A stretch of DNA of 47,576 nt, from assembly GCA_042218115.1 (NCBI GenBank), contig JBDGRJ010000040.1, forward strand, positions 1 to 47,576, given 5' to 3'. The notes under the pieces were generated by a model. It saw nothing but the letters and a program-made list of their open reading frames with translations, was not told the origin of the DNA and did not search any database. Below are positions 22,225-38,489 of this stretch, piece by piece; position 1 is the stretch's first letter; every line of letters begins with the position of its first letter. Made by a program: the position numbers and the translations under genes. The DNA is from Minisyncoccia bacterium. GTDB taxonomy: Bacteria; Patescibacteriota; Patescibacteriia; Magasanikbacterales; UBA922.

Positions 22225-24180
22225 GTGACTGAGGGTGATGGTAGATGTTTAGTTCTAGCTGGCGCCGGCTCAGGCAAGACCAGAACTGTGACTTACCGAA
22301 CTGCTTATCTACTGGATCAAGGGGTAAAACCATCCGAGATTCTATTGGTAACTTTTACGAACAAGGCGGCAGATGAGATGGTAGAGAGAGTACGCCAACT
22401 TACTGATCTAAGACGGGATTTACCTTGGGCTGGTACTTTCCATTCTATTGCATATAAAATTCTGCGTGAATACGGGAATAAACTCGGTTATGAGGATAAT
22501 TTTACGGTTTTAGATAGTAGTGATTCGGAAAAGCTAATAAAGCGAGTTTTGGATCAACTTAATATAGATCAAGGCAAGGATAGCTTTCCAAAAGCGAGCA
22601 CTATCCAATCCATTATTAGTTTTGCCCGCAACTCAAAGGATACTATTGAGAATGTTATGGATCTAAAGTATCAGAAATACCTTGATCATGTAGATACTAT
22701 CGAACATTTAGCAGAAGAATATTCTCAGAGAAAGCAAAAAGCTAATGCTATGGATTTTGATGATTTGCTTGTAAATTTATCGCGCTTATTAAAGAACAAT
22801 GAGGACCTAAAGAAAAAATTTTCCAAACAGTTTAAGTATGTTTTAGCTGACGAATACCAGGACACAAATCAGCTTCAAGATGAGATTTTGAAACTGTTTT
22901 CCGAACATCATGGAAATCTGTTGGTGGTGGGTGATGATGCGCAGAGTATTTATTCTTTTCGTGCTGCTGATATAAGTAATATACTGGAGTTTGAGGATGA
23001 GTTTGAAAATACAAAAATATTTAAATTAGAAACCAATTACCGTTCCACGCCCAAGATATTGGAGCTGGCAAATGAAACCATTAAGAATAACACAAACCAG
23101 CACGAAAAAGAACTAACAAGTACAAAGGAGACTACCTCCGAACCAAAGATTGAAGAACTGTCCAATCGTCGTAGAGAGGCGGAGTATATAGCTGATGAGA
23201 TGGAGAGACTTGAATCAAACGGGGTAGGATATAGTGAGATGGCATCACTGTTTCGAGCTTCACATCACTCACAGGCTTTGGAGATGGAGCTGAATCAGCG
23301 CGGCATCCCCTATGAGTTTAGAGGGGGAATGAGATTTTTTGAACGAGCCCACATCAAAGATACTCTTGCCTATTTGCGAGCTCTTGTTAACCCAAAAGAC
23401 ACTACAGCTTGGGACCGAGTTCTGACTCAACATACCGGCATAGGTCCCAAGACATCTGCTAAGATCATTAACAGAATTCAAAGCTTAGACACTCTTAGTA
23501 AGCTTGAGGATGTAAAATCAGGGCTGAACTCTAGAGCACAGGAAGGGTGGAATAGCTTTTTTTCTATCTGGAGTGAGATCGCAGCTGACAAAGAGGAGGG
23601 TCCGGCTGAGTTGATTAAAGCCCTCAAAGATTCTCGCTATAAAAATATACTCAAACAGGAGTATGAAAATCACAAAGAGAGACTTAAAGACATAAAGCAG
23701 CTTGCTTCGACCGCCTTTTCTATTGTAGACTCGGATGACTCTCCACAAGAACAACTACAACAATTTTTAGCTGAGGCTTCACTACAGCAGAAGTATGAAG
23801 CGGATGAGTCTGAGGATAAGGCTGTATTGTCTACAATACACCAGGCCAAAGGTTTGGAGTGGAGCTCGGTGTTTATTATGAATTTAGCCAAAAGACAGTT
23901 CCCCAACGAGCGTGCTCTAGATAAGCCCAGCGGACTCGAAGAAGAGAGAAGGCTATTCTATGTAGCGCTCACCAGAGCTAAAGAGCATCTGTATCTTACT
24001 TATCCACTTAGCTCAGTAACTTCAAATAGAAAATTTCAAAAGCCAAGTCAGTTTATCAAAGAGGTAGAACATTTAATTGAAGACGAGCAAGCAGAACAAA
24101 TAGAAGCTAATGGTGGGTATACTTATGAACTAGAAGAAGATTCTAACGGTGGTTTCTTAAGTGATATAGATGAACTTTAA
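22225..24180 (+). CDS. UvrD/PcrA/Rep-family ATP-dependent DNA helicase
   Basis: Motifs LVLAGAGSGKT, VLADEYQDTN, TNYRS, STIHQAKGLEW and YVALTRAK. The conserved N-terminal LNxxQ motif (LNEQQYKVV) lies upstream of the listed GTG in the same open frame, which starts at 22177. The true start is therefore probably upstream and non-canonical. Confidence 0.85.
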   Translation: MTEGDGRCLVLAGAGSGKTRTVTYRTAYLLDQGVKPSEILLVTFTNKAADEMVERVRQLTDLRRDLPWAGTFHSIAYKILREYGNKLGYEDNFTVLDSSDSEKLIKRVLDQLNIDQGKDSFPKASTIQSIISFARNSKDTIENVMDLKYQKYLDHVDTIEHLAEEYSQRKQKANAMDFDDLLVNLSRLLKNNEDLKKKFSKQFKYVLADEYQDTNQLQDEILKLFSEHHGNLLVVGDDAQSIYSFRAADISNILEFEDEFENTKIFKLETNYRSTPKILELANETIKNNTNQHEKELTSTKETTSEPKIEELSNRRREAEYIADEMERLESNGVGYSEMASLFRASHHSQALEMELNQRGIPYEFRGGMRFFERAHIKDTLAYLRALVNPKDTTAWDRVLTQHTGIGPKTSAKIINRIQSLDTLSKLEDVKSGLNSRAQEGWNSFFSIWSEIAADKEEGPAELIKALKDSRYKNILKQEYENHKERLKDIKQLASTAFSIVDSDDSPQEQLQQFLAEASLQQKYEADESEDKAVLSTIHQAKGLEWSSVFIMNLAKRQFPNERALDKPSGLEEERRLFYVALTRAKEHLYLTYPLSSVTSNRKFQKPSQFIKEVEHLIEDEQAEQIEANGGYTYELEEDSNGGFLSDIDEL

Positions 24181-24201
24181 ATTTATTTTTCAGTTTAGAT
24201 A

Positions 24202-24230
24202 TTGACTCAAAGAAGAAATTAGACTATAAT
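24202..24230 (+). promoter_or_regulatory. Candidate sigma70 promoter (TTGACT-17 nt-TATAAT) for ndk
   Basis: Hexamers at 24202-24207 and 24225-24230, 28 nt upstream of the ndk ATG. Confidence 0.5.
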
Positions 24231-24258
24231 TACCCTGAATTATTCTTAAACTATCACC

Positions 24259-24747
24259 ATGGAGTTTGAAAATTTTGAAGGCGTGAATGAAAAGACCCTA
24301 GTTCTTATCAAGCCAGATGGGGTTCAACGTGGCTTGGTGGGAGAGGTAATTAAGAGATTAGAAAAGAAGGGCTTGAAGATTGTTGGGCTTAAGTTTATGG
24401 AGCTTGATGAGGAGCTGCTCCGAGATCATTACTCCCATCATGTAGATAAAGATTTTTATGCTGGTCTCGAAGAGTTTATGCAGTCCTCTCCTGTAGTAGC
24501 GCTTTGTGTTGAGGGTCAAAACGCAATCTCCGCGGTTCGTCTAATCACCGGCGACACCCATGGAGGAGAAGCGAATGCGGGCACTATCCGAGGTGACTTG
24601 GCTATGGGTGTGTGCAATGTCGTCCATTGTTCGGACTCAGTAGAAAATGCAAAAGCTGAGATCGATAGGTTTTTCAACAAAGATGAGCTTTACGACTACG
24701 ACAAGACAGAATATCTACATGTATATATGGAGGACGAACGTGAATAA
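24259..24747 (+). CDS. ndk: Nucleoside diphosphate kinase
   Basis: TLVLIKPDGVQRGLVGEVI N-terminus and active-site NVVHCSDS (usually NxxHGSDS). Confidence 0.9.
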   Translation: MEFENFEGVNEKTLVLIKPDGVQRGLVGEVIKRLEKKGLKIVGLKFMELDEELLRDHYSHHVDKDFYAGLEEFMQSSPVVALCVEGQNAISAVRLITGDTHGGEANAGTIRGDLAMGVCNVVHCSDSVENAKAEIDRFFNKDELYDYDKTEYLHVYMEDERE

Positions 24748-24784
24748 TTTGACCCTCTAAGAAAGACGTAGTACAATACATACA

Positions 24785-24966
24785 CCTGTCCTACAGGAGG
24801 AGAAAACCATGTCCGACACCCAATAAATAGGGGGCTTATATCGGCTTGGCCCGGCGGTTCGTCCGTAGGTCAAGTTCTGCGGCCACCCACTATACCATTC
24901 AGGGACATTAGGTTAATCCCCTGAGGGCAGGTATAAAGCGGCTCGCAGATTGCTGCGAGCTGTTTT
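24785..24966 (+). promoter_or_regulatory. Structured GC-rich leader: 5-codon mini-ORF with a strong SD, alternative antiterminator/terminator helices, terminator at 24941-24966
   Basis: AGGAGG (24795-24800) is followed 8 nt later by ATG TCC GAC ACC CAA TAA (24809-24826). The terminator is GCTCGCAG-ATTG-CTGCGAGC plus TGTTTT. Nucleotides 24876-24884 (TCTGCGGCC) can instead pair with 24940-24949, giving 9 bp with one bulge. The class is not identified. Confidence 0.4.
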
Positions 24967-24997
24967 AAATCAAAATCAAAATTAAAAAAGAATAACA

Positions 24998-25441
24998 ATG
25001 AAAAAGCGATCTCATTATCCGTCATTGATGGTTGTTACCAGCAAAGAGGAGGTTAAGTGGTATAAAGTATTTAGAGATAGAGTAGAAAAGCTAGAGGAGA
25101 AGAATACTGAAGAGTGGGATCTATCGGACAAAGAAGGTCATTTTGAAAAAAGAGGTCACGGAGAAGCTTTGGGCACTGCCGGAGTGGATATAGAGAATGC
25201 TGAAGAGAGAAGAATTATTGAAAAACACACGAAAAAAGTAGCTGAGAAAACCAAAGAGCTTTGGGATAGTAATTTTAAACATCTTATGATAGCAGTACCC
25301 GAATATCTTAAAAATGTAGTTGAGAACAGAATAGAAAAAGCTCTAAATAGACAAGAGTATAAGTACATAAAAGGAAACTTTACTCATGCAGATAAAGATA
25401 AGCTATTAGAGCTGGCACAGGATAGCTTGAAGGTGGTATAG
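24998..25441 (+). CDS. Hypothetical protein resembling the host-attachment / bacterial eRF1-like (baeRF) family
   Basis: The 147-aa layout (N-terminal beta region, a central G-rich loop, then ...KKVAEKTKELWDSNFKHLMIAVPEYLKNVVENRIEKAL...KGNFTHADKDKLLE) matches my recollection of the PF10116-type pattern. This is not verified. Confidence 0.45.
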   Translation: MKKRSHYPSLMVVTSKEEVKWYKVFRDRVEKLEEKNTEEWDLSDKEGHFEKRGHGEALGTAGVDIENAEERRIIEKHTKKVAEKTKELWDSNFKHLMIAVPEYLKNVVENRIEKALNRQEYKYIKGNFTHADKDKLLELAQDSLKVV

Positions 25442-25449
25442 AGCAAGAT

Positions 25450-25478
25450 TTGACAGGGTAAGCAAATATAGCTAATAT
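25450..25478 (+). promoter_or_regulatory. Candidate sigma70 promoter (TTGACA-17 nt-TAATAT) of module 1
   Basis: Hexamers at 25450-25455 and 25473-25478. The leader ORF ATG is about 17 nt from the predicted transcription start site. Confidence 0.5.
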
Positions 25479-25501
25479 ATACTTAAGTTCAAATAAATAT
25501 C

Positions 25502-25609
25502 ATGCATAAGAGCTTCCGCTTTGAAAATTCAATGCTCGTGAGTATTGTGCTTATTATTATCCTCGCCAGCCGAGGCGGAGCTCTTCTAGTACCTGAACGA
25601 GCCAGGTAA
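25502..25609 (+). CDS. Leader peptide ORF 1 (35 aa, Ile/Val/Leu-rich)
   Basis: MHKSFRFENSMLVSIVLIIILASRGGALLVPERAR, translated by hand. 9 of 11 consecutive residues (LVSIVLIIILA) are branched-chain. It overlaps attenuator helices 1 and 2. Confidence 0.45.
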   Translation: MHKSFRFENSMLVSIVLIIILASRGGALLVPERAR

Positions 25610-25632
25610 CACGAACCAAAAAACAAAGAAGA

Positions 25633-25657
25633 GCCCGCCGGAGACGGCGGGCTTTTT
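25633..25657 (+). terminator. Rho-independent terminator (attenuator) of module 1
   Basis: GCCCGCCG-GAGA-CGGCGGGC followed by TTTTT. It lies between the promoter/leader and the ATP-grasp gene. Confidence 0.75.
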
Positions 25658-25873
25658 AAATTTAACAGTCTTTACAAAAGAAACAAAAAATGATAAGTTC
25701 ATATCATTTCTCATCCGGATTAGCTTTTTAAAGGGTTAACCTGGCTGAGAAAGCCATAGCTCTTTAGATCTTTACATATCGGTGTGTAAACCACTCTTGC
25801 CATCCGAGAAGCTGTTTGGCTTTTGGGGTGGCAAGAGTGTGTTAATTGAATTCTCACGGAAGAGGAAAATACG

Positions 25874-27070
25874 ATGAGAGTCTTGATTCATTCGATGATG
25901 ATGTATGTCCACCTCTTGCAGGGGGAGGTGGACGAGCTGAAGAATTATTCGGGGCGCGCCCTGCTCGCCCCGCGGTCTTACGGTGCCGTCGTCTACGACA
26001 CCGAGACTGCTCGCAGGTATGCCAGGTACCTGCGAAATCTTGAGCTTGGGCCGGAGAAGGTTTGGTTCGTGGAGCAGAAGGGCAAGACCCTATTTCACGC
26101 GCTGAACCAATCCGGCACCCTCCAGAAGGTCCTGAAAGCCGCCGACTCGATCGCCCCGTTCGTCTCGTGGGAGAAGACGAACCAATTCCGCGAGGAATGG
26201 GGGCTCGATCATGGTCGGTGGTACGGCCAGGACCGTGAGGACCACGTAAGTCTGGAGAACAAGGCGCAACTTCGCCGACGTTTTCCGGATTCGTGGTTCT
26301 CAGAATACGAGATCTTCCCGGCTGGAGATATCAGCGGAATCCAGGAGTACGGATTTCGCTTGATGGCAAAGTACGGGAAGATCCTAGTCCGGCATCCGAA
26401 GAAGGCATCGGGTGTCGGGCTCCGATTCCTGGAGGACTCGGAGGAGCTCCACTCCTCCAAGCTCATCGAGTTTCTCCAAGGCTTTGCCGGTGAGGAGTTG
26501 CTCGTCGAGCAGTTCTTCTCCGGGGCCGAGGAGTACTCGATAACCTGGGAAAGGGGGCTTGGTGGAGAGCCCCGACAGCTCTACTGGTCGGGACAATTCA
26601 TCAAGTCCGGCGTGCATCAGGGCAACTTGATTGCCTCGCCGGAGACCCTCCTCCCCGAGGAGGCCCAGGGAGCGATCGAGGAGATCGAGGCCGCCACCCG
26701 CGAGATCGTGTCAAACCACGACTCGCCGGGCCGGTACGGTTTTGACCTTCTCATCCGACCCAACGGAGAGTGGGTCGTAATCGAGTGTAACTGCCGATAT
26801 GGGGGGAGCGCCTATCCCGCCTTCGTTCGAGAGAACGTAGGGGAGGATCGTTGTGTCATCATGCACAACGTCTATCCCGAAACGGCGGAGAGCTTCGAGG
26901 AGGTCCACGAAGCCTTCGAGGAGCTCGGGCTCGACTACGACCCCTCGAGCCGAGAGGGTGCGCTCGTTGGCAACCCCTTCGCCCTTCCGGCGAAATGTGC
27001 CGCGGTGATCGTGGCCAATAAGCCGGACGAGGTGAAAGGGATGCTCAAGCGCATCCAAAATAATCTCTAA
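25874..27070 (+). CDS. ATP-grasp superfamily ligase, high-GC paralog (398 aa)
   Basis: ILVRHPKKASGVG (Lys plus Gly-rich loop), LVEQF and the Mg-binding-like ECNCRYGG. It aligns over its full length with the 28150..29337 product. GC is about 57-68% in two lines I counted. Confidence 0.8.
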   Translation: MRVLIHSMMMYVHLLQGEVDELKNYSGRALLAPRSYGAVVYDTETARRYARYLRNLELGPEKVWFVEQKGKTLFHALNQSGTLQKVLKAADSIAPFVSWEKTNQFREEWGLDHGRWYGQDREDHVSLENKAQLRRRFPDSWFSEYEIFPAGDISGIQEYGFRLMAKYGKILVRHPKKASGVGLRFLEDSEELHSSKLIEFLQGFAGEELLVEQFFSGAEEYSITWERGLGGEPRQLYWSGQFIKSGVHQGNLIASPETLLPEEAQGAIEEIEAATREIVSNHDSPGRYGFDLLIRPNGEWVVIECNCRYGGSAYPAFVRENVGEDRCVIMHNVYPETAESFEEVHEAFEELGLDYDPSSREGALVGNPFALPAKCAAVIVANKPDEVKGMLKRIQNNL

Positions 27071-27178
27071 CTCTACTGACGAAGGAGGTCGACCCGCTAC
27101 CTGGCAGCGTGGTCGGAACCTCTTTGTGTAGACAAGTTGTTTGTCTATACAAACAGGGTTAAATATTAATCAATCAAA

Positions 27179-27910
27179 ATGGAGACTAATGAAAGAATTT
27201 TGGTTGTTCAGTTTCGTACTGACGATTCTGAAGACCATGAGCAAAAATGTTTTCATGAAGACTACAATGATCTTAGTGTAGATCTTCACTTTGAGAGTGC
27301 TATTAGTGGGGATTTAGAAAATTGTCGTTTAGATGATTATCACGGGGTAATTTTAGGAGGAAGTGGCGAGTATTATTTGACTGAAGGTGCAGGTAAGGGT
27401 AGCTGGAGGCAGGATGCATTTGAGTTTATAAATAAAACCTTAAATAAAGAGAAGCCTACTTTGGGTATTTGCTTTGGGTCTCAGCTGCTAGCTCTACACC
27501 AGGGTGGCAAGCTTGTCAGTGATGAAAAGTATCACGAATCAGGATCTTACCAAGTAGATTTAACAAAAGAGGCAGAAGATTGTGATATTTTTTCCAACAT
27601 GGATCCATCGTTTAATGCTACTATAGCTCACCAGGATACTCACATAGATATGCCTGATAATATCGTTCCTTTAGCAAGCTCGGAGAGAGTCCCCTGTCAG
27701 GCCTTCAAGGTGAAAGATAAGCCAGCTTGGGGTACCCTATTCCACCCGGAGCTAAATGCTGACAGGCTTGATTATAGACTTCGGCTCTACCCGTCTTACG
27801 TAGATAATGAGCATCTGATTGATGAGATTATACAGGACTTTGATGACACATCCTATTCTATCAATATATTACATCACTTCTATCATTATATCGCAGAAAA
27901 TATTGATTAA
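27179..27910 (+). CDS. Class I glutamine amidotransferase-like protein (COG0518/GuaA-type, peptidase C26-like fold)
   Basis: Nucleophile elbow LGICFGSQLLA and the His-Glu pair in LFHPELN. Confidence 0.85.
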   Translation: METNERILVVQFRTDDSEDHEQKCFHEDYNDLSVDLHFESAISGDLENCRLDDYHGVILGGSGEYYLTEGAGKGSWRQDAFEFINKTLNKEKPTLGICFGSQLLALHQGGKLVSDEKYHESGSYQVDLTKEAEDCDIFSNMDPSFNATIAHQDTHIDMPDNIVPLASSERVPCQAFKVKDKPAWGTLFHPELNADRLDYRLRLYPSYVDNEHLIDEIIQDFDDTSYSINILHHFYHYIAENID

Positions 27911-27927
27911 GATTTTATGAATGTGAA

Positions 27928-27956
27928 CTTGACTACACCTCGTCGCTGTTCTATAA
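27928..27956 (+). promoter_or_regulatory. Candidate sigma70 promoter (TTGACT-17 nt-TATAAT) of module 2
   Basis: Hexamers at 27928-27933 and 27951-27956. The leader ORF ATG is about 15 nt from the predicted transcription start site. Confidence 0.5.
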
Positions 27957-27977
27957 TATTTCTGTAATTATAGCATT

Positions 27978-28064
27978 TATGAATAAATTCAATTTCCTAA
28001 ATAACCAGTTTCTATTTCTGTTTATGATGCCCGCTTGGTCGCGGCGGCGCTCCTGTAATGGCTA
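27978..28064 (+). CDS. Leader peptide ORF 2 (28 aa, Phe/Leu-rich, ends in SRRRSCNG)
   Basis: MNKFNFLNNQFLFLFMMPAWSRRRSCNG, translated by hand, with 5 Phe and 3 Leu in residues 4-15. It shares the M-x-K-(x)-F-x-F-x-N start, a hydrophobic core and an SR motif with leader ORF 1. Confidence 0.45.
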
Positions 28065-28088
28065 GTTGAATTTTTTCAGCCAGTAAAG

Positions 28089-28112
28089 AGCCCGCCGGAG
28101 ACGGCGGGCTTT
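28089..28112 (+). terminator. Rho-independent terminator (attenuator) of module 2
   Basis: The same GCCCGCCG-GAGA-CGGCGGGC hairpin followed by TTTT. It is 37 nt upstream of the ATP-grasp ATG. Confidence 0.75.
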
Positions 28113-28149
28113 TGCTATTAATTTTAGTTACTTAATTATTGCTTACAAC

Positions 28150-29337
28150 ATGAAGACCCACATACATGATTTGAGCTTGTTTGTAACTTTTCTCAAAGGG
28201 TACATTTCCGGGGTAGAGGATTATGTAGCCAGGGCACTCTTATCTCCAGAGGGGGCCGTGGTCTTTGATGATTATGACGTGGATAATTATGTAGAATATC
28301 TGCGAGATATAAATGTAGGTCCCAAGAAAGTTTGGTCGGTAGAGTCTACCGGGGATACTCTATTTCACGCTTTAGATCAAAGTAATCAGCTGGATGAGGT
28401 ACTTGAGCAAAGTGATGTAATAGTGCCGTTCGTATCTTGGGAATATACCAATAAATTTAAAGACAAATGGGGCCTGAAAGACAGTCAGTGGAAGACTCAA
28501 CCCCCCGAAGTTCACCAAAAGCTAGAAAATAAGACTCACTTAAGAGAGATAGGAAAAGAGGAGTGGTTTACAGACTATACTACCTGTAGAGACAAAGAGT
28601 TAGTGGAGGTGGGTCAAGAAATGCTCAGAGAGTACGAGAATATTTTAGTACGTCATCCTAAAAAAGCTAGTGGTGTGGGCGCAGAACAGATAGGAGACCC
28701 GAATTATTTTCAGTCCCAAGACTTTGATCAGTTTGTAGAAGAACATTCTGATGATAACCACTTTTTAGTTGAGGAGTTTTATGAGAAAGGGGAGGAGTTT
28801 AGCATTATCTGGGATGTATCAGCAGAGGGTGAGCCCAAACTTCAATTTTGGACCAGGCAATATATTAATGATTGTGTACATCAGGGTAATATGGTGGCCG
28901 ATGTTGAAGTTGTATTCCCTTGGGAGGCTGAAACAACTATTAGTGAGATAAAAGATGCTACTCGTAGAATAATTGAGGAGTACCCATACTTTGGGCGTAT
29001 AGGTTTTGATTTGAAGGTTTCGCCTTCCGGTGAGTGGAAAATATTGGAGTGTAATTGCAGATACGGTGGGTCTTCTTATCCAGGGTTTACTAGAGAGCAA
29101 GTGGGGGAGGATCGTTGTGTGTTAATGCATAACATTCACCCTAGGCTAGATAATTTTCAGCAGGTACACCAAGCTTTTGTGGAGGCAGATGTAGATTACT
29201 CAAAGGAAGATAGAATAGGCGCTTTTGTAGCCAACCCATTTTGCCTGCCGGACAAGTGTGCTGCTATGATCGTAGCAGAAAACCCCGATGAGGCGGAGCA
29301 GATTCTATCTACTATCTTGGATAAAGTCGATAAATAA
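28150..29337 (+). CDS. ATP-grasp superfamily ligase, low-GC paralog (395 aa)
   Basis: ILVRHPKKASGVG, LVEEF, ECNCRYGGSSYPGF and GEDRCVLMHN. It is collinear with the 25874..27070 product. Confidence 0.8.
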   Translation: MKTHIHDLSLFVTFLKGYISGVEDYVARALLSPEGAVVFDDYDVDNYVEYLRDINVGPKKVWSVESTGDTLFHALDQSNQLDEVLEQSDVIVPFVSWEYTNKFKDKWGLKDSQWKTQPPEVHQKLENKTHLREIGKEEWFTDYTTCRDKELVEVGQEMLREYENILVRHPKKASGVGAEQIGDPNYFQSQDFDQFVEEHSDDNHFLVEEFYEKGEEFSIIWDVSAEGEPKLQFWTRQYINDCVHQGNMVADVEVVFPWEAETTISEIKDATRRIIEEYPYFGRIGFDLKVSPSGEWKILECNCRYGGSSYPGFTREQVGEDRCVLMHNIHPRLDNFQQVHQAFVEADVDYSKEDRIGAFVANPFCLPDKCAAMIVAENPDEAEQILSTILDKVDK

Positions 29338-29344
29338 TTTAACT

Positions 29345-30082
29345 GTGGGCTCGGATATTAATATAACTGTTATACAATACAGAACCGATGAGTCCAGGCT
29401 CCATGAGCAAAGATGTTTTCAAGACCAGTTTTCTAAGCTAGGAGTAGAGTTTGAATTTATAAATGCAATCGAGGAGGATTTGAGCACTGATGTGATAGAG
29501 GATACACACGGGTTAATTTTAGGGGGAAGTACTGAGTTTTCTTTGTCAAAGCTAGATTGGGGTGACCATACTTGGATAGATACAAGTTTTAATATTTTAA
29601 ACGAGTTAACCAACAGGGAGCTTCCTACTTTGGGGATTTGCTTTGGTTATCACTTGATTGCTCTACATCAGGGTGGTAAAATCACCAATGAAGATAAATA
29701 TCACCAAAGTGGATCTTTTCAGTTAAGTCTATCTCAGCATAAGCATAAATGTGATATTTTCTCTAATCTTCCAGAAGAGTTTTACGCTCAGCTAGGACAT
29801 GTAGACACCCCTGTTGATTTGCCCGAAAACGGCTTGTCATTAGCCTCTTCTAATGAAGTACCTCATCAGGCTTTCAAGGTAGAAGATAGGCCCGTATGGG
29901 GGGTGTTATTTCATCCTGAGCTTAACAAACAAAGAGCCAAAGAGAGATTGGCTATGTTTCTCGATTGTGAGGTAGGCAGCGAAGAGTTCAATCAGGAGGT
30001 GAAAAAACTGGAGAGTAGCCCTGAATCCCAACGGGTTATTCACGAATTTATTAAGTTTACTAATAGAAAGTGTCATGAATAA
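29345..30082 (+). CDS. Class I glutamine amidotransferase-like protein, paralog 2
   Basis: LGICFGYHLIA and LFHPELN. I prefer the GTG at 29345 (VGSDINITVIQYRTDE...) because it aligns with the start of paralog 1 and avoids overlap with the ATP-grasp gene. Confidence 0.8.
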   Translation: MGSDINITVIQYRTDESRLHEQRCFQDQFSKLGVEFEFINAIEEDLSTDVIEDTHGLILGGSTEFSLSKLDWGDHTWIDTSFNILNELTNRELPTLGICFGYHLIALHQGGKITNEDKYHQSGSFQLSLSQHKHKCDIFSNLPEEFYAQLGHVDTPVDLPENGLSLASSNEVPHQAFKVEDRPVWGVLFHPELNKQRAKERLAMFLDCEVGSEEFNQEVKKLESSPESQRVIHEFIKFTNRKCHE

Positions 30083-31010
30083 AGTGCTTTTATTTTACAA
30101 ATATGTGGATATAGAAGACCCTCAGCAAGTCACCGAAAGGCACAAGGAGGTGTGCAAAGCTTTGCAGCTTAAAGGGAGAATACTGATAAGTGACAATGGT
30201 ATTAATGGAACAGTTGGTGCAGATCCCGATCTAGTAGATAAATATAAGGAGTATATCGAGCAACATAAACTATTTGAAGGAACGGATTTTAAAGAAAGTG
30301 AGTCTCGTAAAACCCCTTTTTCTGATTTGTCTGTGAAGGTTAAGGATGAGCTGGTTACCACCGATGCTGATGAGGATTATAATATCTGCGATAGAGCTCA
30401 ACACATAAAACCGAAAACCTTGCACTTATGGATGCAGCAAGAACAAGATAATCTGGTCTTGTTGGATATGAGAAATGATTATGAGTGGAGGATCGGTCGG
30501 TTTAAGGGGGCGGTTAGGCCACCTATGAAGTATTTTCGTGATTTGAAGGACAATCTGGACTTTTATGAGCAGTTCAAAGACAACAAAATTGTTCTGTTTT
30601 GTACCGGTGGTATTAGATGTGAGCCCGCTTCAGCGATGTTGATCGAACACGGTTTTGACCCAGATAATTTATATCAACTGGAAGGAGGCATCATGAAGTA
30701 CGTTGATAAATATGGGTCAGACGGGTTTTATATCGGAGATTGTTTCGTATTTGATGACCGGGTTAGCATTGAGGTGGATGATAATGTATTAGCTAAGTGT
30801 GATATTTGTGGGGGGGAGTGTAATCAATACAGAAACTGTGCAAACAAGAAGTGCAACAAATTATTCATAGGTTGTAGTGATTGTATGGAAGAGCTTGAAA
30901 ATAGCTGCTCCGAGGGCTGCTATGAGTTTATTCAAAACCCGGACAATAAAAGACCAGAAGCTTCAAATCATCACCCTATTCATAGAAATAAAGGAGTAGC
31001 TACAAATTAG
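30075..31010 (+). CDS. trhO: Rhodanese-domain tRNA uridine(34) hydroxylase TrhO (YceA/UPF0176 family)
   Basis: VLLFYKYVDIEDPQ...LKGRILISDNGINGTVG N-terminal domain, rhodanese loop CTGGIRCE and a Cys-rich C-terminal tail. The ATG overlaps the amidotransferase stop (ATGAATAA). Confidence 0.8.
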   Translation: MNKVLLFYKYVDIEDPQQVTERHKEVCKALQLKGRILISDNGINGTVGADPDLVDKYKEYIEQHKLFEGTDFKESESRKTPFSDLSVKVKDELVTTDADEDYNICDRAQHIKPKTLHLWMQQEQDNLVLLDMRNDYEWRIGRFKGAVRPPMKYFRDLKDNLDFYEQFKDNKIVLFCTGGIRCEPASAMLIEHGFDPDNLYQLEGGIMKYVDKYGSDGFYIGDCFVFDDRVSIEVDDNVLAKCDICGGECNQYRNCANKKCNKLFIGCSDCMEELENSCSEGCYEFIQNPDNKRPEASNHHPIHRNKGVATN

Positions 31011-31099
31011 CTGGGCTTTTTGAGGTATGTTATTATTAATATGGAGCTTTAACAATGTTTTTTTAGTTCAAATTCAGCGTAACTTTTAATCAAAAATTT

Positions 31100-31540
31100 A
31101 TGCAGCTTTCCAGTCCAGCTTTTAATCATGAAGGAGAGATTCCTCCTAAATATACTTGTGACGGAGAGGATATAAATCCTCGCTTAAAGATAGACAATAT
31201 TCCCGACCGGGCTAAATCTCTAGCTTTGATTGTAGATGACCCGGATGCTCCCGGTGGAACTTTTACTCACTGGACAATGTGGAACATAGATACTGATATT
31301 GAGAGCATAGAAGAAGATAGTGTACCCGAGGGAGCTATTCAGGGGGGTACCGATTTCGGAGATACAGGCTACGGCGGCCCCTGTCCTCCTTCTGGAACTC
31401 ATAGATACTTCTTTAAGTTATATGCCTTAGGGGAAGAGGTAAATCTAAACTCCGGAGCTAGTAAATCAGATTTGGAGAGTGCTATCAAAGAGAGGGTGGT
31501 TGACTCAGCTGAGCTAATGGGTCAGTACAGCCGAGAATAA
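31100..31540 (+). CDS. YbhB/YbcL-family PEBP (Raf kinase inhibitor-like) protein
   Basis: SPAFNHEGEIPPKYTCDGEDINPRL, LIVDDPDAPGGTFTHW and GPCPPSGTHRYFFKLYAL. Confidence 0.85.
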   Translation: MQLSSPAFNHEGEIPPKYTCDGEDINPRLKIDNIPDRAKSLALIVDDPDAPGGTFTHWTMWNIDTDIESIEEDSVPEGAIQGGTDFGDTGYGGPCPPSGTHRYFFKLYALGEEVNLNSGASKSDLESAIKERVVDSAELMGQYSRE

Positions 31541-31560
31541 ATGAGTAGTAATGAAAAAAC

Positions 31561-31588
31561 AAAAACCCCGCCAGTTGGCGGGGTTTTT
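31561..31588. terminator. Bidirectional rho-independent terminator between convergent genes
   Basis: AAAAA-CCCCGCC-AGTT-GGCGGGG-TTTTT. Confidence 0.8.
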
Positions 31589-31608
31589 GTAGTTGAGAGA
31601 CTCTTTGC

Positions 31609-31764
31609 TTATTTACCTTTCTTTTTTATACATTGAGTGCAGAGTTTTTTACCGTGCCATTTTTGCAGGTTTGGTTTTTGTCGTCTTATAGTTTTGTTGT
31701 TAGCATCACTTCTATGTGCTGCCTTTTTGGACCCTTTTCCGCATTCTTCACATCTTCTGGCCAT
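31609..31764 (-). CDS. rpmB: 50S ribosomal protein L28
   Basis: Hand translation (51 aa): MARRCEECGKGSKKAAHRSDANNKTIRRQKPNLQKWHGKKLCTQCIKKKGK. It has the L28 N-terminal motif and is below the ORF-track cutoff. Confidence 0.8.
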   Translation of the reverse strand: MARRCEECGKGSKKAAHRSDANNKTIRRQKPNLQKWHGKKLCTQCIKKKGK

Positions 31765-31770
31765 AATATG

Positions 31771-31799
31771 TTGATTATTTTGTAGATTATTTTTATACT
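31771..31799 (+). promoter_or_regulatory. Candidate sigma70 promoter (TTGATT-17 nt-TATACT)
   Basis: Hexamers at 31771-31776 and 31794-31799, upstream of the M50 protease gene. Confidence 0.4.
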
Positions 31800-31843
31800 C
31801 TAAGCAGTCGAATTATACATTTTTTTATCTTAATTGTCAATAG

Positions 31844-32464
31844 ATGAATTTTGTACCACTTTTGTTTTACTTCATTATCATTATCCCTTCTGCCATTATT
31901 CATGAATATATGCACGGCTGGATGGCCGATCAGCTTGGGGACCCTACGGCCAAGCATAGAGGCCGCCTTACTTTAGATCCTAGAGCTCATATTGATCCAT
32001 TGGGTACACTGTTGATGCCGCTTTTTTTGTTTTTTATAAGCGGTGGTTCTTTTCTATTTGCTTATGCCAAGCCTGTTCCTATAAATTACTATAATCTGGA
32101 TGATCAGAAGTGGGGTCCGATGTGGGTAGCTTTGGCTGGACCCTTATCTAACTTCGCTTTAGCTGCTATTTTCGGGTTAATGATACAGATATTACCGGCT
32201 GGTATGCTGGTGATTCAGTTCTTGTTGATTATAGTGTATGCAAATGTATTGCTGGGAGTATTTAATATGGTGCCGATACCTCCTTTGGACGGATCGAAGG
32301 TGTTATTTGCTTTGCTGCCTTCTTCTTATCAGGAGATCAAAGTGAAGCTGCAGAGATATAAGTTTATTATTCTGATCATATTCTTATTCTTTGGTTTTCA
32401 GCTGATAATGCCCATAATCCGCTATCTTACTAAGCTATTCACCGGCGGCATGACCTTATTTTAG
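31844..32464 (+). CDS. Site-2 protease family (peptidase M50) membrane metalloprotease
   Basis: HEYMHGW (HExxH) in the first TM region, a second-ligand region NMVPIPPLDGSK, and a polytopic membrane layout. Confidence 0.75.
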   Translation: MNFVPLLFYFIIIIPSAIIHEYMHGWMADQLGDPTAKHRGRLTLDPRAHIDPLGTLLMPLFLFFISGGSFLFAYAKPVPINYYNLDDQKWGPMWVALAGPLSNFALAAIFGLMIQILPAGMLVIQFLLIIVYANVLLGVFNMVPIPPLDGSKVLFALLPSSYQEIKVKLQRYKFIILIIFLFFGFQLIMPIIRYLTKLFTGGMTLF

Positions 32465-32469
32465 CCTTC

Positions 32470-32498
32470 TTGACATGAAGTCCCAATTTTTTTATAAT
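32470..32498 (+). promoter_or_regulatory. Candidate sigma70 promoter (TTGACA-17 nt-TATAAT) of the rpsL-rpsG-fusA operon
   Basis: Perfect consensus hexamers at 32470-32475 and 32493-32498. Confidence 0.55.
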
Positions 32499-32528
32499 TA
32501 CTCCGCTAGTTAAATAATCACTCAATTC

Positions 32529-32945
32529 ATGCCGACAATAAATCAGCTTGTACGAAAAGGAAGAGATCGAGGTAAAAAGAAATCCGAATCACCTGACTTA
32601 CAATATACATATAATGATCTAGCCCGAGAGAAGAACCAGCTCGATGAAGGAGCTCCGCTAAAGCGTGGAGTTTGTACTGAGGTATATACTCGAGCACCGA
32701 AGAAGCCGAACTCTGCTTTGAGAAAAGTTGCCAAAGTCAGACTCTCTAATGGGGCAAGGATCATTGCCTATATTCCCGGAGAAGGCCACAACCTCCAAGA
32801 ACACTCTATTGTATTAGTAAAAGGTGGTGGCGTGAAAGACTGCCCGGGAGTAAACTATACAGTAGTTCGTGGCGTTTATGATACTGAAGGTGTCGAAGGA
32901 AGAAAGACCAGTAGATCGCTATACGGAACCAAGAAACCAGATTAA
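32529..32945 (+). CDS. rpsL: 30S ribosomal protein S12 (with an insertion of about 15 aa)
   Basis: [12 protein letters not shown]..., [16 protein letters not shown] and [10 protein letters not shown]. There is extra sequence [16 protein letters not shown] before the conserved KRGVC. Confidence 0.95.
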
Positions 32946-36630: not shown

Positions 36631-36675
36631 TATCATTTATTTTTTATTTAGTCTATTTGCCAAAAGAAGTACCAC

Positions 36676-38478: not shown

Positions 38479-38489
38479 TCTAATTTTCA

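What the first reader, a model, noticed from the sequence alone, without database searches (positions are those of the whole stretch)
25450..31010. Tandem duplicated, attenuator-controlled ATP-grasp ligase + class I amidotransferase modules coupled to trhO: candidate undescribed system
The same five-part unit occurs twice in a row: a near-consensus promoter, a short leader ORF, a rho-independent terminator, an ATP-grasp protein of about 395 aa, and a COG0518-type GATase1 of about 243 aa with an intact Cys/His/Glu triad.
- The two ATP-grasp proteins align over their full length, roughly 40-50% identical by eye (for example ILVRHPKKASGVG, ECNCRYGGS, GEDRCV.MHN, NPF.LP.KCAA.IVA).
- The two GATases also align (LGICFG, AFKV.D.P.WG.LFHPELN).
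- The second GATase overlaps trhO (tRNA U34 hydroxylase) by 8 nt (ATGAATAA), implying co-translation.
- I do not recognise these ATP-grasp proteins as any characterised family. ATP-grasp plus amidotransferase is the chemistry of carbamoyl-phosphate synthetase and other amidoligases, and the C26-like fold can also act as a gamma-glutamyl hydrolase.

Given the amino-acid-biased leaders, three readings are possible, all inference:
- Starvation-induced amino-acid or peptide ligation and salvage, with a different substrate specificity per module.
- Modification of the small leader-encoded peptides.
- A tRNA or protein modification linked to ho5U34.
Basis: partly seen in the sequence, partly recalled or inferred. 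Interest (0 to 1): 0.85.

Follow-up and report, generated by a model that had tools for sequence, protein, structure and literature searches.

The report
Starvation-switched ligase–hydrolase gene pairs
A salt-loving ultra-small bacterium carries two copies of a rare, uncharacterised enzyme pair (an ATP-using ligase plus a glutamine-amidotransferase-like hydrolase), each apparently switched on by shortage of a different set of hydrophobic amino acids, and the first ligase gene is oddly G+C-rich because its whole messenger RNA is folded into conserved hairpins.

Summary
Two promoter, leader ORF, terminator, ATP-grasp, GATase units lie in tandem, and the second GATase overlaps trhO by 8 nt. The ATP-grasp paralogues are 46% identical and the GATases 44%.

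- **Attenuators.** Comparative data back them strongly. Fifteen related leaders share one terminator/antiterminator design, with Ile/Val/Leu runs before AG1-type genes and Phe/Leu/Met runs before AG2-type genes.
- **ATP-grasp family.** It is very rare: 10 clusters in 5.8 billion proteins, one GTDB species, halophilic CPR only. Its fold matches the amino-acid/peptide ligases PGM1, BesA and LdmS.
- **GATase.** It resembles TM1158 and plant gamma-glutamyl peptidase over its full length. It outnumbers the ligase, can carry its own leader, and occurs alone in other CPR. This favours a ligase plus gamma-glutamyl-type hydrolase pair over a CPS-like amidoligase. The chemistry is inferred, not shown.
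- **trhO.** Linkage is conserved only in this narrow clade.

**New point.** AG1 is 59% G+C in a 40% genome, as are its orthologues in four other genomes. Its ORF holds about 369 conserved RNA base pairs with covariation. Why is unexplained.

The parts
25450..25478 (+). Sigma-70-like promoter of module 1 (TTGACA-17-TAATAT)
   Evidence: Found by the scan. Equivalent TTGAC(A/T/G)-17-TA..AT sites lie upstream of the leaders in related loci (read from the sequences).
25502..25609 (+). Leader ORF 1 (35 aa, MHKSFRFENSMLVSIVLIIILASRGGALLVPERAR), with an Ile/Val/Leu control-codon run. Region 2 of the attenuator lies at 25573-25586.
   Evidence: Orthologous leaders in L005, L003, L001 and L010 keep the Ile/Val/Leu run but not the sequence. 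Antiterminator duplex -19.7 kcal/mol against -10.0+-2.4 in shuffles.
25629..25658 (+). Intrinsic terminator 1 (AAGAGCCCGCCGGAGACGGCGGGCTTTTT)
   Evidence: stem -18.4 kcal/mol. The 20-nt stem is identical to terminator 2.
25787..25844 (+). Conserved long hairpin in the AG1 5'UTR. Function unknown; possibly an mRNA 5' stabiliser or a processing or binding site.
   Evidence: Inverted repeat I1. RNAalifold on 4 loci gives 24 pairs, 6 of them with compensatory changes. No Rfam match.
25874..27070 (+). AG1: ATP-grasp ligase paralogue 1 (398 aa). The ORF is 59% G+C (GC3 0.76) and its mRNA carries about 369 conserved base pairs.
27119..27157 (+). Conserved hairpin in the AG1-GAT1 spacer, preceded by a G+C-rich hairpin at about 27090-27125.
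   Evidence: Inverted repeat I2. Alignment of 5 loci shows 9 of 24 pairs with compensatory change.
27179..27910 (+). GAT1: COG0518-type class I GATase-fold protein (243 aa) with a Cys98/His189/Glu191 triad.
27929..27957 (+). Sigma-70-like promoter of module 2 (TTGACT-17-TATAAT)
   Evidence: Conserved in L005.
27979..28065 (+). Leader ORF 2 (28 aa, MNKFNFLNNQFLFLFMMPAWSRRRSCNG), with a Phe/Leu/Met control-codon run. Region 2 lies at 28041-28053, and the stop codon is 10 nt beyond it.
   Evidence: antiterminator -19.3 against -9.5+-2.4. Related leaders in L005, L001, L003, L004, L007 and L008 are all Phe/Leu/Met rich.
28086..28115 (+). Intrinsic terminator 2
28150..29337 (+). AG2: ATP-grasp ligase paralogue 2 (395 aa), with normal composition and no excess RNA structure.
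29345..30082 (+). GAT2: second GATase-fold protein. The likely start is GTG 29345; the longest ATG ORF starts at 29288.
30075..31010 (+). trhO (tRNA U34 hydroxylase). It overlaps GAT2 by 8 nt and has no terminator before it, so it is probably co-transcribed with module 2.
   Evidence: trhO follows the AG2-type module in the window and in five related genomes, L001/L002/L009 being one genome.

Best explanation
These are two paralogous operons, each under leader-peptide attenuation and each induced by amino-acid starvation. They sit in a halophilic CPR bacterium (Paceibacteria MAG).

**Regulation.** Each operon is transcribed from a sigma-70-type promoter into a short leader.
- When charged tRNA is plentiful, the ribosome runs to the leader stop codon, the GCCCGCC...GGCGGGC-U hairpin forms, and transcription ends.
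- When charged tRNA is scarce, the ribosome stalls in the hydrophobic codon run. The relevant tRNAs are Ile/Val/Leu for module 1 and Phe/Leu/Met for module 2.
- The stall leaves the GGCGG(A)GCUCUU segment free to pair with the 5' arm of the terminator (AAGAGCCCGCC). Polymerase then reads into AG-GAT, and in module 2 also into trhO.

**Enzymes.**
- AG is a catalytically intact ATP-grasp carboxylate-amine ligase of the PGM1/BesA/LdmS structural clade.
- GAT is a stand-alone Cys-His-Glu amidohydrolase of the TM1158/GGP1 (gamma-glutamyl peptidase) type.

**Proposed chemistry (inferred).** AG ligates an acidic amino acid, most likely through the glutamate gamma-carboxylate, to a hydrophobic amino acid or a close precursor or analogue. 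GAT cleaves that gamma-glutamyl amide. The pair would thus make and break acidic dipeptides, capturing, retaining or partitioning the scarce hydrophobic amino acid class that each leader senses.

**AG1 mRNA.** AG1 (and the GCS2 ligase in relatives) is additionally encoded as a G+C-rich mRNA folded along the whole ORF and flanked by conserved 5' and 3' hairpins. I infer this protects or meters the message while ribosomes are slowed by starvation.

**Shown:** anatomy, paralogy, conservation of pairing and leaders, folds, RNA structure. **Inferred:** attenuation in vivo, substrates, purpose of the RNA structure.
For: **Attenuators**
- Of 15 leaders in 8 loci tested, 13 gave a terminator with the automatic search. 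Their antiterminator duplexes were 1.3-4.6 sd stronger than shuffles, 12 of 13 beyond 2 sd. Region 2 lies at or near the ORF end.
- Peptide sequences differ but composition tracks the downstream gene. Ile/Val/Leu runs precede AG1-type genes, Phe/Leu/Met runs precede AG2-type genes, a Val run precedes malic enzyme next to ilvCBAD, and aromatic or Phe runs precede GCS2 next to PDT/TyrA.
- Weak Rfam resemblance to the Phe, Thr and Trp leaders.

**AG**
- AF2 model pLDDT 85.9.
- Best PDB folds are a Streptomyces ATP-grasp peptide ligase (8ynd, E 8e-22, TM 0.72), BesA, PGM1 and LdmS, ahead of PurK and biotin carboxylase.
- E300-x-N302-x-R304, D287 and the VRHPKKASG loop are invariant.

**GAT**
- pLDDT 93.8.
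- Full-length matches to TM1158 (TM 0.79) and Arabidopsis gamma-glutamyl peptidase 1 (0.78).
- Pfam Peptidase_C26 passes its cut-off.

**GAT acts on its own**
- Two or three GATs accompany each AG in L003 and L004.
- A leader sits directly before a GAT in L008.
- GAT-GAT and GAT-efp arrangements occur without AG in other CPR.

**Pairing is ancient**
- P0011, about 31% identical to AG2, sits between GCS2 and a homologous GAT.

**Precedents**
- The hmrA-ldmS operon combines a dipeptidase with an ATP-grasp Asp-Met ligase. Its upstream region carries predicted CodY and CymR sites, so it is thought to be derepressed on nutrient limitation (PMC9486568).
- Carboxylate-amine ligases are found next to GAT-like thiol peptidases or gamma-glutamyl cyclotransferases (PMC2588565).

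**RNA structure in AG1**
- Synonymous-shuffle z of -5 to -13 for AG1-type ORFs, against -0.7 to +2.3 for neighbours.
- 186 column-pairs are shared by at least 3 of 4 orthologues, against 5 for the AG2 control.
- 91.8% of cells are paired. 42 pairs covary, against 21.5+-3.4 in shuffles (0/500) and 4-18 when slid.
- G.U pairs far outnumber A.C, so the structure is on the mRNA sense strand.
Against: - No biochemical or expression data exist, and the substrates are guessed from fold neighbours.
- Making a dipeptide from the very amino acid that is scarce looks paradoxical. The same unresolved paradox is noted for LdmS.
- GAT is closest in sequence to true glutaminase subunits (archaeal GuaA subunit A, E 2.5e-31 over residues 75-195). 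AG2 and GAT2 are tightly coupled, 7-13 nt apart. A glutaminase-synthetase complex is therefore not excluded.
- In leader 1 the stop codon lies about 20 nt beyond region 2, which fits the classical model less neatly than leader 2.
- A possible second promoter (TTTACA-17-TAAGTT, about 25669-25697) downstream of terminator 1 could bypass the attenuator.
- The stabilisation idea for the structured ORF does not explain why AG2, which is also starvation-induced, lacks it.
- All relatives come from one narrow, syntenic clade, so conservation of gene order carries limited weight.
Confidence: 0.45

Rival explanations
1. AG and GAT form a two-subunit glutamine-dependent amidoligase, following CPS, CTP-synthase or GMP-synthase logic. 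GAT hydrolyses glutamine and channels ammonia to an acyl-phosphate made by AG, amidating a carboxylate.
For: - The triad and the GICFG nucleophile elbow are intact.
- The best sequence matches are glutaminase subunits of archaeal GMP synthase.
- The AG profile weakly hits the second ATP-grasp domain of CPS1 (E 4e-5).
- AG2-type genes are translationally coupled to a GAT.
- The adjacency persists down to about 31% identity.
Against: - There are more GATs than AGs per locus, and a GAT sits alone behind its own leader.
- The same GAT family occurs with no AG in other CPR.
- L001 and L007 have an AG2-type gene with no GAT after it.
- The AG fold is nearest to ligases that use amino-acid or peptide amines, not ammonia.
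- No product amide is evident that would relieve Ile or Phe shortage.
Confidence: 0.2
2. The short upstream ORFs encode peptide substrates, in a RiPP or PGM1-like peptide ligation. AG modifies or extends them and GAT matures them.
For: AG is structurally PGM1-like, and PGM1 ligates ribosomal peptides. A short ORF precedes every module.
Against: - The peptides share composition, not sequence.
- The only constant stretch (..RGGA..) coincides with RNA stems complementary to the terminator.
- The same leader type precedes malic enzyme and GCS2.
- Each leader is followed by a terminator. This suits regulation, not co-expression with the enzyme.
Confidence: 0.05
3. The enzymes modify the translation apparatus during starvation, for example by RimK-like addition and removal of amino acids on a ribosomal protein, EF-P or a tRNA-linked substrate. 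They would act together with TrhO.
For: - trhO follows the AG2-type module in the window and five related genomes and overlaps GAT2 here.
- The locus lies in a translation-gene neighbourhood of rpmB, rpsL, rpsG and fusA.
- In another CPR lineage a GAT homologue is separated from efp by one nucleotide (GAT ends 7729, efp starts 7731).
Against: - The neighbourhood is conserved synteny, also present in CPR that lack AG and trhO at this site.
- No target protein, tRNA-binding domain or carrier is encoded in the modules.
- The L010 cousin sits beside amino-acid biosynthesis genes instead.
Confidence: 0.1
4. The G+C-rich AG1 is only a recent horizontal acquisition or an assembly chimera, and its 'structure' is a by-product of composition.
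For: The GC step is sharp and ORF-bounded. The codon dialect is foreign. The AG1 slot is filled by divergent homologues in L001 and L010.
Against: - The same anomaly appears at the same locus in four independent assemblies, plus a distant cousin.
- Fourfold sites of neighbouring genes are saturated between the deeper-branching genomes.
- Structure exceeds shuffles that keep protein and codon usage.
- Pairs are conserved and covary.
- No closer homologue exists in 5.8e9 or 1.8e9 protein collections.
Confidence: 0.04

Closest known systems
hmrA-ldmS operon of Staphylococcus aureus (M20D Met-X dipeptidase plus ATP-grasp L-Asp-L-Met ligase)
   Same: An ATP-grasp amino-acid ligase is co-transcribed with a peptide hydrolase. 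It appears to be switched on by amino-acid limitation, and the acceptor is a hydrophobic amino acid. AG gives a weak NCBIfam hit to LdmS, and LdmS is among the top fold matches.
   Different: - The hydrolase is a metallopeptidase, not a GATase-fold thiol enzyme.
- Regulation is inferred from predicted CodY and CymR repressor sites, not leader-peptide attenuation.
- Sequence identity is about 12%, and the LdmS equivalog cut-off is not met (18.9 against 475 bits).
- The physiological role of LdmS is itself unknown.
Gamma-glutamylation ligase/hydrolase pairs (PuuA/PuuD, IpuC/IpuF, AtdA1/AtdA2; BesA; EgtA/EgtC; plant GGP1)
   Same: An ATP-dependent carboxylate-amine ligase is paired with a class-I-GATase-fold (C26-type) gamma-glutamyl amidohydrolase. 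GAT matches GGP1 over its full length, and BesA is a top fold hit for AG. The pairing logic is from my own knowledge and from PMC2588565.
   Different: - In most of those systems the ligase is glutamine-synthetase-like or GCS-like.
- An enzyme that transforms the gamma-glutamylated intermediate sits between the two steps. No such middle enzyme is encoded here.
- None is known to be controlled by amino-acid leader peptides.
Carbamoyl-phosphate synthetase CarA/CarB
   Same: It is the only well-known case of ATP-grasp chemistry fed by a class I GATase. The AG profile gives a weak sequence hit to the CPS1 ATP-grasp domain.
   Different: - CarB has two ATP-grasp units (about 1070 aa) and CarA has an extra N-terminal domain.
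- Stoichiometry is strictly 1:1.
- The AG fold is closer to peptide ligases.
- GAT copy number and independence do not fit.
Enterobacterial leader-peptide attenuators (ilvGMEDA, ilvBN, leu, pheA, pheST, trp)
   Same: Promoter, short ORF with runs of the sensed amino acid, alternative 1:2 / 2:3 / 3:4 pairings, and an intrinsic terminator. Leader 1 resembles the ilvGMEDA leader in composition.
   Different: - Found in Patescibacteria (CPR), where I found no report of such attenuators.
- They control ligase/hydrolase genes rather than classical biosynthetic operons.
- Rfam leader models are not met (19-27 bits against gathering scores of 41-55).
PGM1-type ATP-grasp peptide ligases (pheganomycin; 8ynd/8ynq Streptomyces enzymes)
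   Same: Best overall fold match (TM about 0.7) with the same three-domain arrangement.
   Different: - 13-16% identity.
- Those enzymes sit in actinobacterial secondary-metabolite clusters.
- No amidino or guanidino amino-acid biosynthesis genes are present here.

Membership tests
ATP-grasp superfamily | Three-domain ATP-grasp fold | tested here: met
   AF2 model pLDDT 85.9. 727 PDB matches with E<=1e-3, and all 50 listed are ATP-grasp enzymes.
ATP-grasp superfamily | Mg/ATP-binding residues: the E-x-N(-x-R) motif, an upstream Asp, and a Lys-rich flexible loop | tested here: met
   E300, N302, R304, D287 and R168-H169-P170-K171 are invariant in 11 sequences. Their roles are assigned by analogy.
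ATP-grasp superfamily | Passes a curated Pfam ATP-grasp model | tested here: not met
   AG1 scores 19 bits on R2K_3 (cut-off 26.3) and 16.9 on ATP-grasp_3 (cut-off 23.2). AG2 has no hit.
LdmS (L-Asp-L-Met ligase, NF047900) | Equivalog score cut-off | tested here: not met
   18.9 bits against 475.
Carbamoyl-phosphate synthetase type glutamine-dependent ATP-grasp synthetase | Duplicated ATP-grasp large subunit and a dedicated 1:1 CarA-type small subunit | tested here: not met
   - AG is a single 395-aa unit.
- GAT scores 28 bits against 307 for CPSase small subunit.
- GAT:AG ratios of 3:2 occur in L003 and L004.
Class I glutamine amidotransferase fold (PF00117) | Pfam gathering score and the Cys-His-Glu triad | tested here: met
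   63.4 and 55.3 bits against 22.8. C98, H189 and E191 are invariant in 30 sequences.
Peptidase C26 / gamma-glutamyl hydrolase (PF07722; GGP1-like) | Profile match and full-length structural similarity | tested here: met
   28.1 and 21.6 bits against 20.5. GGP1 TM 0.78 and TM1158 TM 0.79.
Peptidase C26 / gamma-glutamyl hydrolase (PF07722; GGP1-like) | Hydrolysis of gamma-glutamyl amides other than glutamine | not testable with these tools
   Needs an enzyme assay.
Leader-peptide transcription attenuator | Short ORF with a run of codons for the sensed amino acid(s), conserved in kind among relatives | tested here: met
   15 leaders, with composition tracking the downstream gene.
Leader-peptide transcription attenuator | Intrinsic terminator between leader and gene, plus a mutually exclusive antiterminator overlapping the end of the ORF | tested here: met
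   13 of 15 leaders gave a terminator. Antiterminator z ranged from -1.3 to -4.6, with 12 of 13 beyond -2. A 1:2 pairing appears in the MFE fold of leader 1.
Leader-peptide transcription attenuator | Read-through increases when the cognate charged tRNA is scarce | not testable with these tools
   Needs reporter assays or transcriptomics.
Rfam leader families (Phe_leader, Thr_leader, Trp_leader) | Gathering score | tested here: not met
   19-27 bits against gathering scores of 41-55.
TrhO (tRNA U34 hydroxylase) | NCBIfam equivalog cut-off and the UPF0176_N + rhodanese + Rhodanese_C architecture | tested here: met
   238.3 bits against 170. All three Pfam domains are present.
RiPP / graspetide-type system | Precursor peptide with a conserved core next to the ATP-grasp enzyme | tested here: not met
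   Leader peptides lack a conserved core. Their conservation is at the RNA level.

The most novel reading that the evidence does not exclude
Halophilic CPR bacteria may run a previously undescribed provisioning system for hydrophobic amino acids.
- Leader-peptide attenuators tuned to Ile/Val/Leu, Phe/Leu/Met or aromatic residues switch on dedicated carboxylate-amine ligases (a new ATP-grasp family and a short GCS2) together with GATase-fold gamma-glutamyl hydrolases.
- These genes sit beside the keto-acid-forming ends of the branched-chain and aromatic pathways, with no aminotransferase in the cluster.
- The key ligase messages are encoded as whole-ORF structured, G+C-rich RNAs. That would be a dedicated device to keep or meter a message while ribosomes starve.
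Probability: 0.3. Interest if true: 0.85.

Novelty: new variant of a known kind. Interest (0 to 1): 0.72.

Why it matters
CPR/Patescibacteria are thought to depend on hosts for amino acids, and their regulation is almost unknown.

- **Sensing.** This is comparative evidence that a CPR lineage uses classical ribosome-mediated attenuation to sense individual classes of hydrophobic amino acids.
- **Enzymes.** What it switches on is not a textbook pathway. It is a rare ligase/hydrolase pair whose chemistry is unknown, which points to an unrecognised way of handling scarce amino acids. The same puzzle is raised by LdmS in Staphylococcus.
- **RNA structure.** Separately, AG1 is a protein-coding gene kept at 54-60% G+C in 37-42% genomes because about 60% of its bases are locked in conserved, covarying mRNA helices. 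This is a clear natural example of strong RNA-level selection across a whole bacterial ORF, and it gives a concrete system in which to test what such structure is for.

Tried and rejected
- **Exact-protein look-ups.** Look-ups of AG2 and P0006 found nothing on record.
- **Broad alignment for locus search.** Alignment A2 was too diverse to search with.
- **GTDB scan.** The species-representative scan found only one genome.
- **JGI metagenome scans.** The protein pattern gave no true hit. The attenuator DNA motif returned only chance matches in G+C-rich contigs.
- **Rfam.** The gathering search found only two tRNAs. The relaxed search gave only sub-threshold leader-like and spurious hits.
- **Literature.** The Iyer 2009 amidoligase paper is not held. 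Searches found no report of leader-peptide attenuation in CPR and no direct precedent for whole-ORF structure.
- **Aminotransferase replacement.** I considered AG+GAT as a PLP-free substitute. The ilv and phe/tyr clusters in L004 and L010 lack a transaminase, and the leader sets mirror the IlvE and TyrB substrate ranges. I rejected it because ATP-grasp plus glutaminase chemistry provides no reduction step.
- **Cognate amino-acid avoidance in AG1.** Ile+Leu+Val is 20.5% in AG1 against 20.7% in AG2, so there is no avoidance.
- **Starvation-robust isoacceptor codons.** The leader uses the same Leu and Ile codon families as AG1, so this does not explain the codon dialect.
- **Integron cassette.** A GTTRRRY-like site after AG1 is not conserved in relatives.

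Full report
**Source.** The window is an entire 47,576-bp contig of a MAG that NCBI names Candidatus Paceibacteria bacterium (locus tags ABEJ02_). Its gene content is typical of CPR. It carries uvrD, ndk, rnc, nusB, a FemAB-like gene, rpsL-rpsG-fusA, cysD/cysNC/cysQ-like genes and two giant ORFs without domains. No amino-acid biosynthesis genes are present.

**Checking the observation.**
- AG1 (25874-27070) and AG2 (28150-29337) are 46% identical end to end, E 2e-133.
- GAT1 (27179-27910) and GAT2 are 44% identical, E 4e-74.
- The two terminator stems are an identical 20-mer found nowhere else in the window, with 0 expected in shuffles.
- trhO passes the NCBIfam TrhO cut-off. Its ATG overlaps the GAT2 stop in ATGAATAA.
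- The GAT2 start is most likely GTG 29345, by comparison with orthologues, rather than ATG 29288.

**How rare the ATP-grasp family is, and where it occurs.**
- A search of 5.8 billion protein clusters found 10.
- An exhaustive HMMER profile search of 1.84 billion representatives found one representative for the family proper. It also found 312 distant cousins of 430-520 aa.
- Among 185,579 GTDB species, one genome carries it: a Magasanikbacteria MAG labelled DAL-Ass.
- Pfam and NCBIfam hits are far below threshold.

**Related loci.** The related contigs L001-L008 share the backbone uvrD-ndk-hyp-[modules]-trhO-PEBP-rpmB-M50-rpsL-rpsG-fusA, so they form one syntenic clade. Within it the modules are plastic:
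- L005 mirrors the window.
- L003 has GCS2 | AG-GAT-GAT | AG-GAT-trhO.
- L004 has ilvC-ilvB-ilvA-ilvD-ridA | malic enzyme | AG-GAT | AAA | GAT-AG-GAT-trhO.
- L001 has a divergent 467-aa AG (hhalign probability 98.8%) followed by GAT | AG-trhO.
- L008 has GAT-AG | GAT.

A cousin about 31% identical to AG2 (P0011, locus L010) again lies directly upstream of a homologous GAT. It is preceded by prephenate dehydratase, TyrA and GCS2. The AG-GAT pairing therefore long pre-dates the duplication seen in the window.

**Leaders.**
- Every module in every locus is preceded by a TTGAC(A/T/G)-17-TA..AT promoter, a 19-35 codon ORF and a G+C-rich hairpin with a U-run.
- The peptides differ in sequence but not in kind.
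- Before AG1-type genes the run is Ile-dominated with Val and Leu, for example LVSIVLIIIL, LVGILLIIIL, LVIIVIIMLV, FIKIIEILLVIL and VSIMLVVL.
- Before AG2-type genes or their GATs it is Phe/Leu/Met, for example FLFLFMM, FLFLFVM, LFVFVLFLVL, FMYLML, FFLFLLL, LFLFLLF and FMFSLLFML.
- Before malic enzyme, next to the ilv genes, it is SSSVVVQVV.
- Before GCS2 it is FSFFSLF or FTFTYFFGFW.
- The one constant peptide stretch (..S/L-R-G-G-A..) is encoded by CGAGGCGG(A/U)GCUCUU. This is complementary to AAGAGCCCGCC, the 5' arm of the terminator.
- In 13 of 15 cases the automatic search found the terminator. The antiterminator duplex was 1.3-4.6 sd more stable than shuffles, 12 of 13 beyond 2 sd, and it ended at or just before the leader stop.
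- The MFE fold of leader 1 also shows an upstream 1:2 pairing, AAGAGCUUCCGC with GGCGGAGCUCUU.
- This is the classical four-segment attenuator. I found no report of it in CPR.
- In vivo function is inferred.

**What the proteins are.**
- *AG2 fold.* The model (pLDDT 85.9) matches a Streptomyces ATP-grasp peptide ligase (8ynd), the gamma-glutamyl ligase BesA, PGM1 and LdmS better than it matches PurK or biotin carboxylases. The Mg/ATP motifs are invariant.
- *GAT1 fold.* The model (pLDDT 93.8) has an invariant Cys-His-Glu triad. Over its full length it resembles TM1158 and Arabidopsis gamma-glutamyl peptidase 1. Archaeal GuaA subunit A matches only the core.
- *Independence of GAT.* In CPR outside this clade the same GAT family occurs as GAT-GAT or GAT-efp, with no AG and no leader.
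- *Reading.* Taken with the excess of GATs over AGs and a GAT with its own leader (L008), this points to GAT as an enzyme in its own right, most plausibly a gamma-glutamyl-type amidohydrolase, rather than an obligate glutaminase subunit. The glutaminase reading is kept as the main rival at 0.2.

**Closest characterised analogue.** This is the staphylococcal hmrA-ldmS operon. It pairs a dipeptidase with an ATP-grasp Asp-Met ligase, and its upstream region carries predicted CodY and CymR sites. Its authors call the ligase activity paradoxical (PMC9486568). Aravind's group noted carboxylate-amine ligases next to GAT-like thiol peptidases or gamma-glutamyl cyclotransferases (PMC2588565).

**Working model.**
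- Each AG ligates Glu or Asp to the class of hydrophobic amino acid its leader senses, and GAT cleaves the product.
- Together they would form a capture, retention or partition cycle.
- The leader classes (I/V/L against F/L/M) mirror the substrate ranges of IlvE and TyrB.
- The modules sit beside transaminase-less ilv and phe/tyr clusters in L004 and L010.
- I could not find ATP-grasp chemistry that would replace a transaminase, so I leave this as an unexplained coincidence.

**The unexpected feature.**
- *Composition.* AG1 is 59% G+C (GC3 0.76) in a 40% genome, with ORF-exact boundaries. Its orthologues in L003, L004 and L005, and the cousin in L010, show the same anomaly: GC 0.54-0.60 and GC3 0.60-0.76. 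Neighbouring genes have GC3 of 0.16-0.40. The codon dialect is wholly different, favouring CTC, ATC, GTC, GCC, TCG, CCG, AAG and GAG.
- *Not a relic.* Fourfold sites of flanking genes are near saturation between the deeper-branching genomes, at 21-35% identity. Passive retention of a foreign composition is therefore unlikely.
- *Excess structure.* Compared with shuffles that keep the protein and its codon usage, AG1-type ORFs are far more structured. The z-scores are -7.8 (window), -13.4, -5.2, -5.1 and -5.2. AG2, GAT1 and trhO give +2.3, -0.7 and +0.4. The GCS2 genes of L003 and L010 are also G+C-raised and structured, at z -5.5 and -3.2. Ten other genes are not.
- *Conservation of pairs.* Independently folded orthologues share 186 aligned base pairs in at least 3 of 4 sequences. 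The figure is 5 for AG2 orthologues of similar divergence.
- *Covariation.* RNAalifold gives 369 pairs at -375 kcal/mol, against -103 for AG2. On that structure 91.8% of cells pair. 42 pairs show changes on both sides, against 21.5+-3.4 in shuffles (0/500) and 4-18 in slid controls.
- *Strand.* G.U pairs (36-80 per sequence) greatly outnumber A.C (8-14), and the sense strand folds better than the antisense. The structure therefore belongs to the mRNA.
- *Initiation region.* The first ~56 nt of the ORF are unpaired in the consensus.
- *Flanking hairpins.* The block is bracketed by a conserved 5'UTR hairpin (25787-25844; 6 covarying pairs in 4 sequences). A conserved spacer hairpin follows at 27119-27157 (9 covarying pairs in 5 sequences). 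Neither matches Rfam.
- *Possible purpose.* I propose protection from RNases or Rho, or metering of translation, while ribosomes stall. This is inference, and it does not explain why AG2 lacks the feature.

**trhO.** It follows the AG2-type module in the window and in five related genomes and has no terminator before it here, so it is probably co-regulated. The linkage is confined to one syntenic clade, and nothing connects the enzymes chemically to ho5U34. A speculative link remains untested: AG1's C-ending codons might depend on wobble-modified tRNAs.

**Verdict.**
- The system is a new variant built from known kinds of parts. These are a leader-peptide attenuator, an ATP-grasp ligase and a GATase-fold hydrolase, here in a lineage and combination not described before.
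- It comes with a striking, unexplained whole-ORF RNA structure.

Noticed in passing
window 25874-27070 (also L003 8001-9170, L004 8001-9215, L005 2925-4121, L010 7001-8329): The AG1-type ATP-grasp ORF is a sharp G+C island (0.54-0.60 against 0.37-0.42). Its mRNA is folded into about 369 conserved, covarying base pairs. The paralogue AG2 and all neighbours are ordinary.
   Followed up: yes
L003 6700-7491 and L010 5453-6274: Short GCS2-family ligase genes (263-273 aa) sit just upstream of the AG1-type gene behind Phe- or aromatic-rich leaders. They are also G+C-raised and over-structured (z -5.5 and -3.2). The window has no GCS2.
   Followed up: partly
L004 1-7623 and L010 3854-5233: Unusually for CPR, relatives carry ilvC-ilvB-ilvA-ilvD-ridA (plus a Val-leader-controlled malic enzyme) or prephenate dehydratase plus TyrA next to the modules. 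No aminotransferase lies in either cluster.
   Followed up: partly
window 25669-25697: A possible second promoter (TTTACA-17-TAAGTT) lies downstream of terminator 1. It is conserved in L005 and L001 and could bypass the attenuator.
   Followed up: no
window 24998-25441: A conserved 147-aa protein of unknown function lies immediately upstream of module 1 in all relatives. The L003 orthologue has weak precomputed hits to Host_attach and baeRF_family12 (eRF1-like). The window copy has no significant Pfam hit.
   Followed up: no
L011 7001-8294 (also L012, L013); L014/L015 7001-8456: In other CPR the same GAT family lies one nucleotide upstream of efp, or forms a GAT-GAT tandem upstream of uvrD. 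In both cases there is no ATP-grasp partner and no leader.
   Followed up: partly
window 35725-39302: A sulfate-activation set is present in a CPR genome and conserved in L001 and L007. It comprises a PAPS-reductase-family (CysD-like) gene, a CysN/APS-kinase fusion and a CysQ-like phosphatase.
   Followed up: no
window 31812-31840 (-) and 32470-32498 (+): Perfect 12/12 consensus promoters (TTGACA-17-TATAAT) lie in front of rpmB (minus strand, 31609-31764) and rpsL. Promoter-like sites are about twice as frequent in 24000-32600 as in shuffles.
   Followed up: no
window 1512-5603 and 39912-46328: Two giant ORFs of 1363 and 2138 aa. The first has no Pfam hit at E<=1e-5; the second was not scanned.
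   Followed up: no
L010 1181-1990 (-) and 6600-6830: Further G+C-rich, over-structured stretches lie in an AT-rich contig: a 269-codon ORF with z -4.6, and a 0.59-GC segment in the 5'UTR of the AG gene. It is unclear whether either is coding.
   Followed up: no
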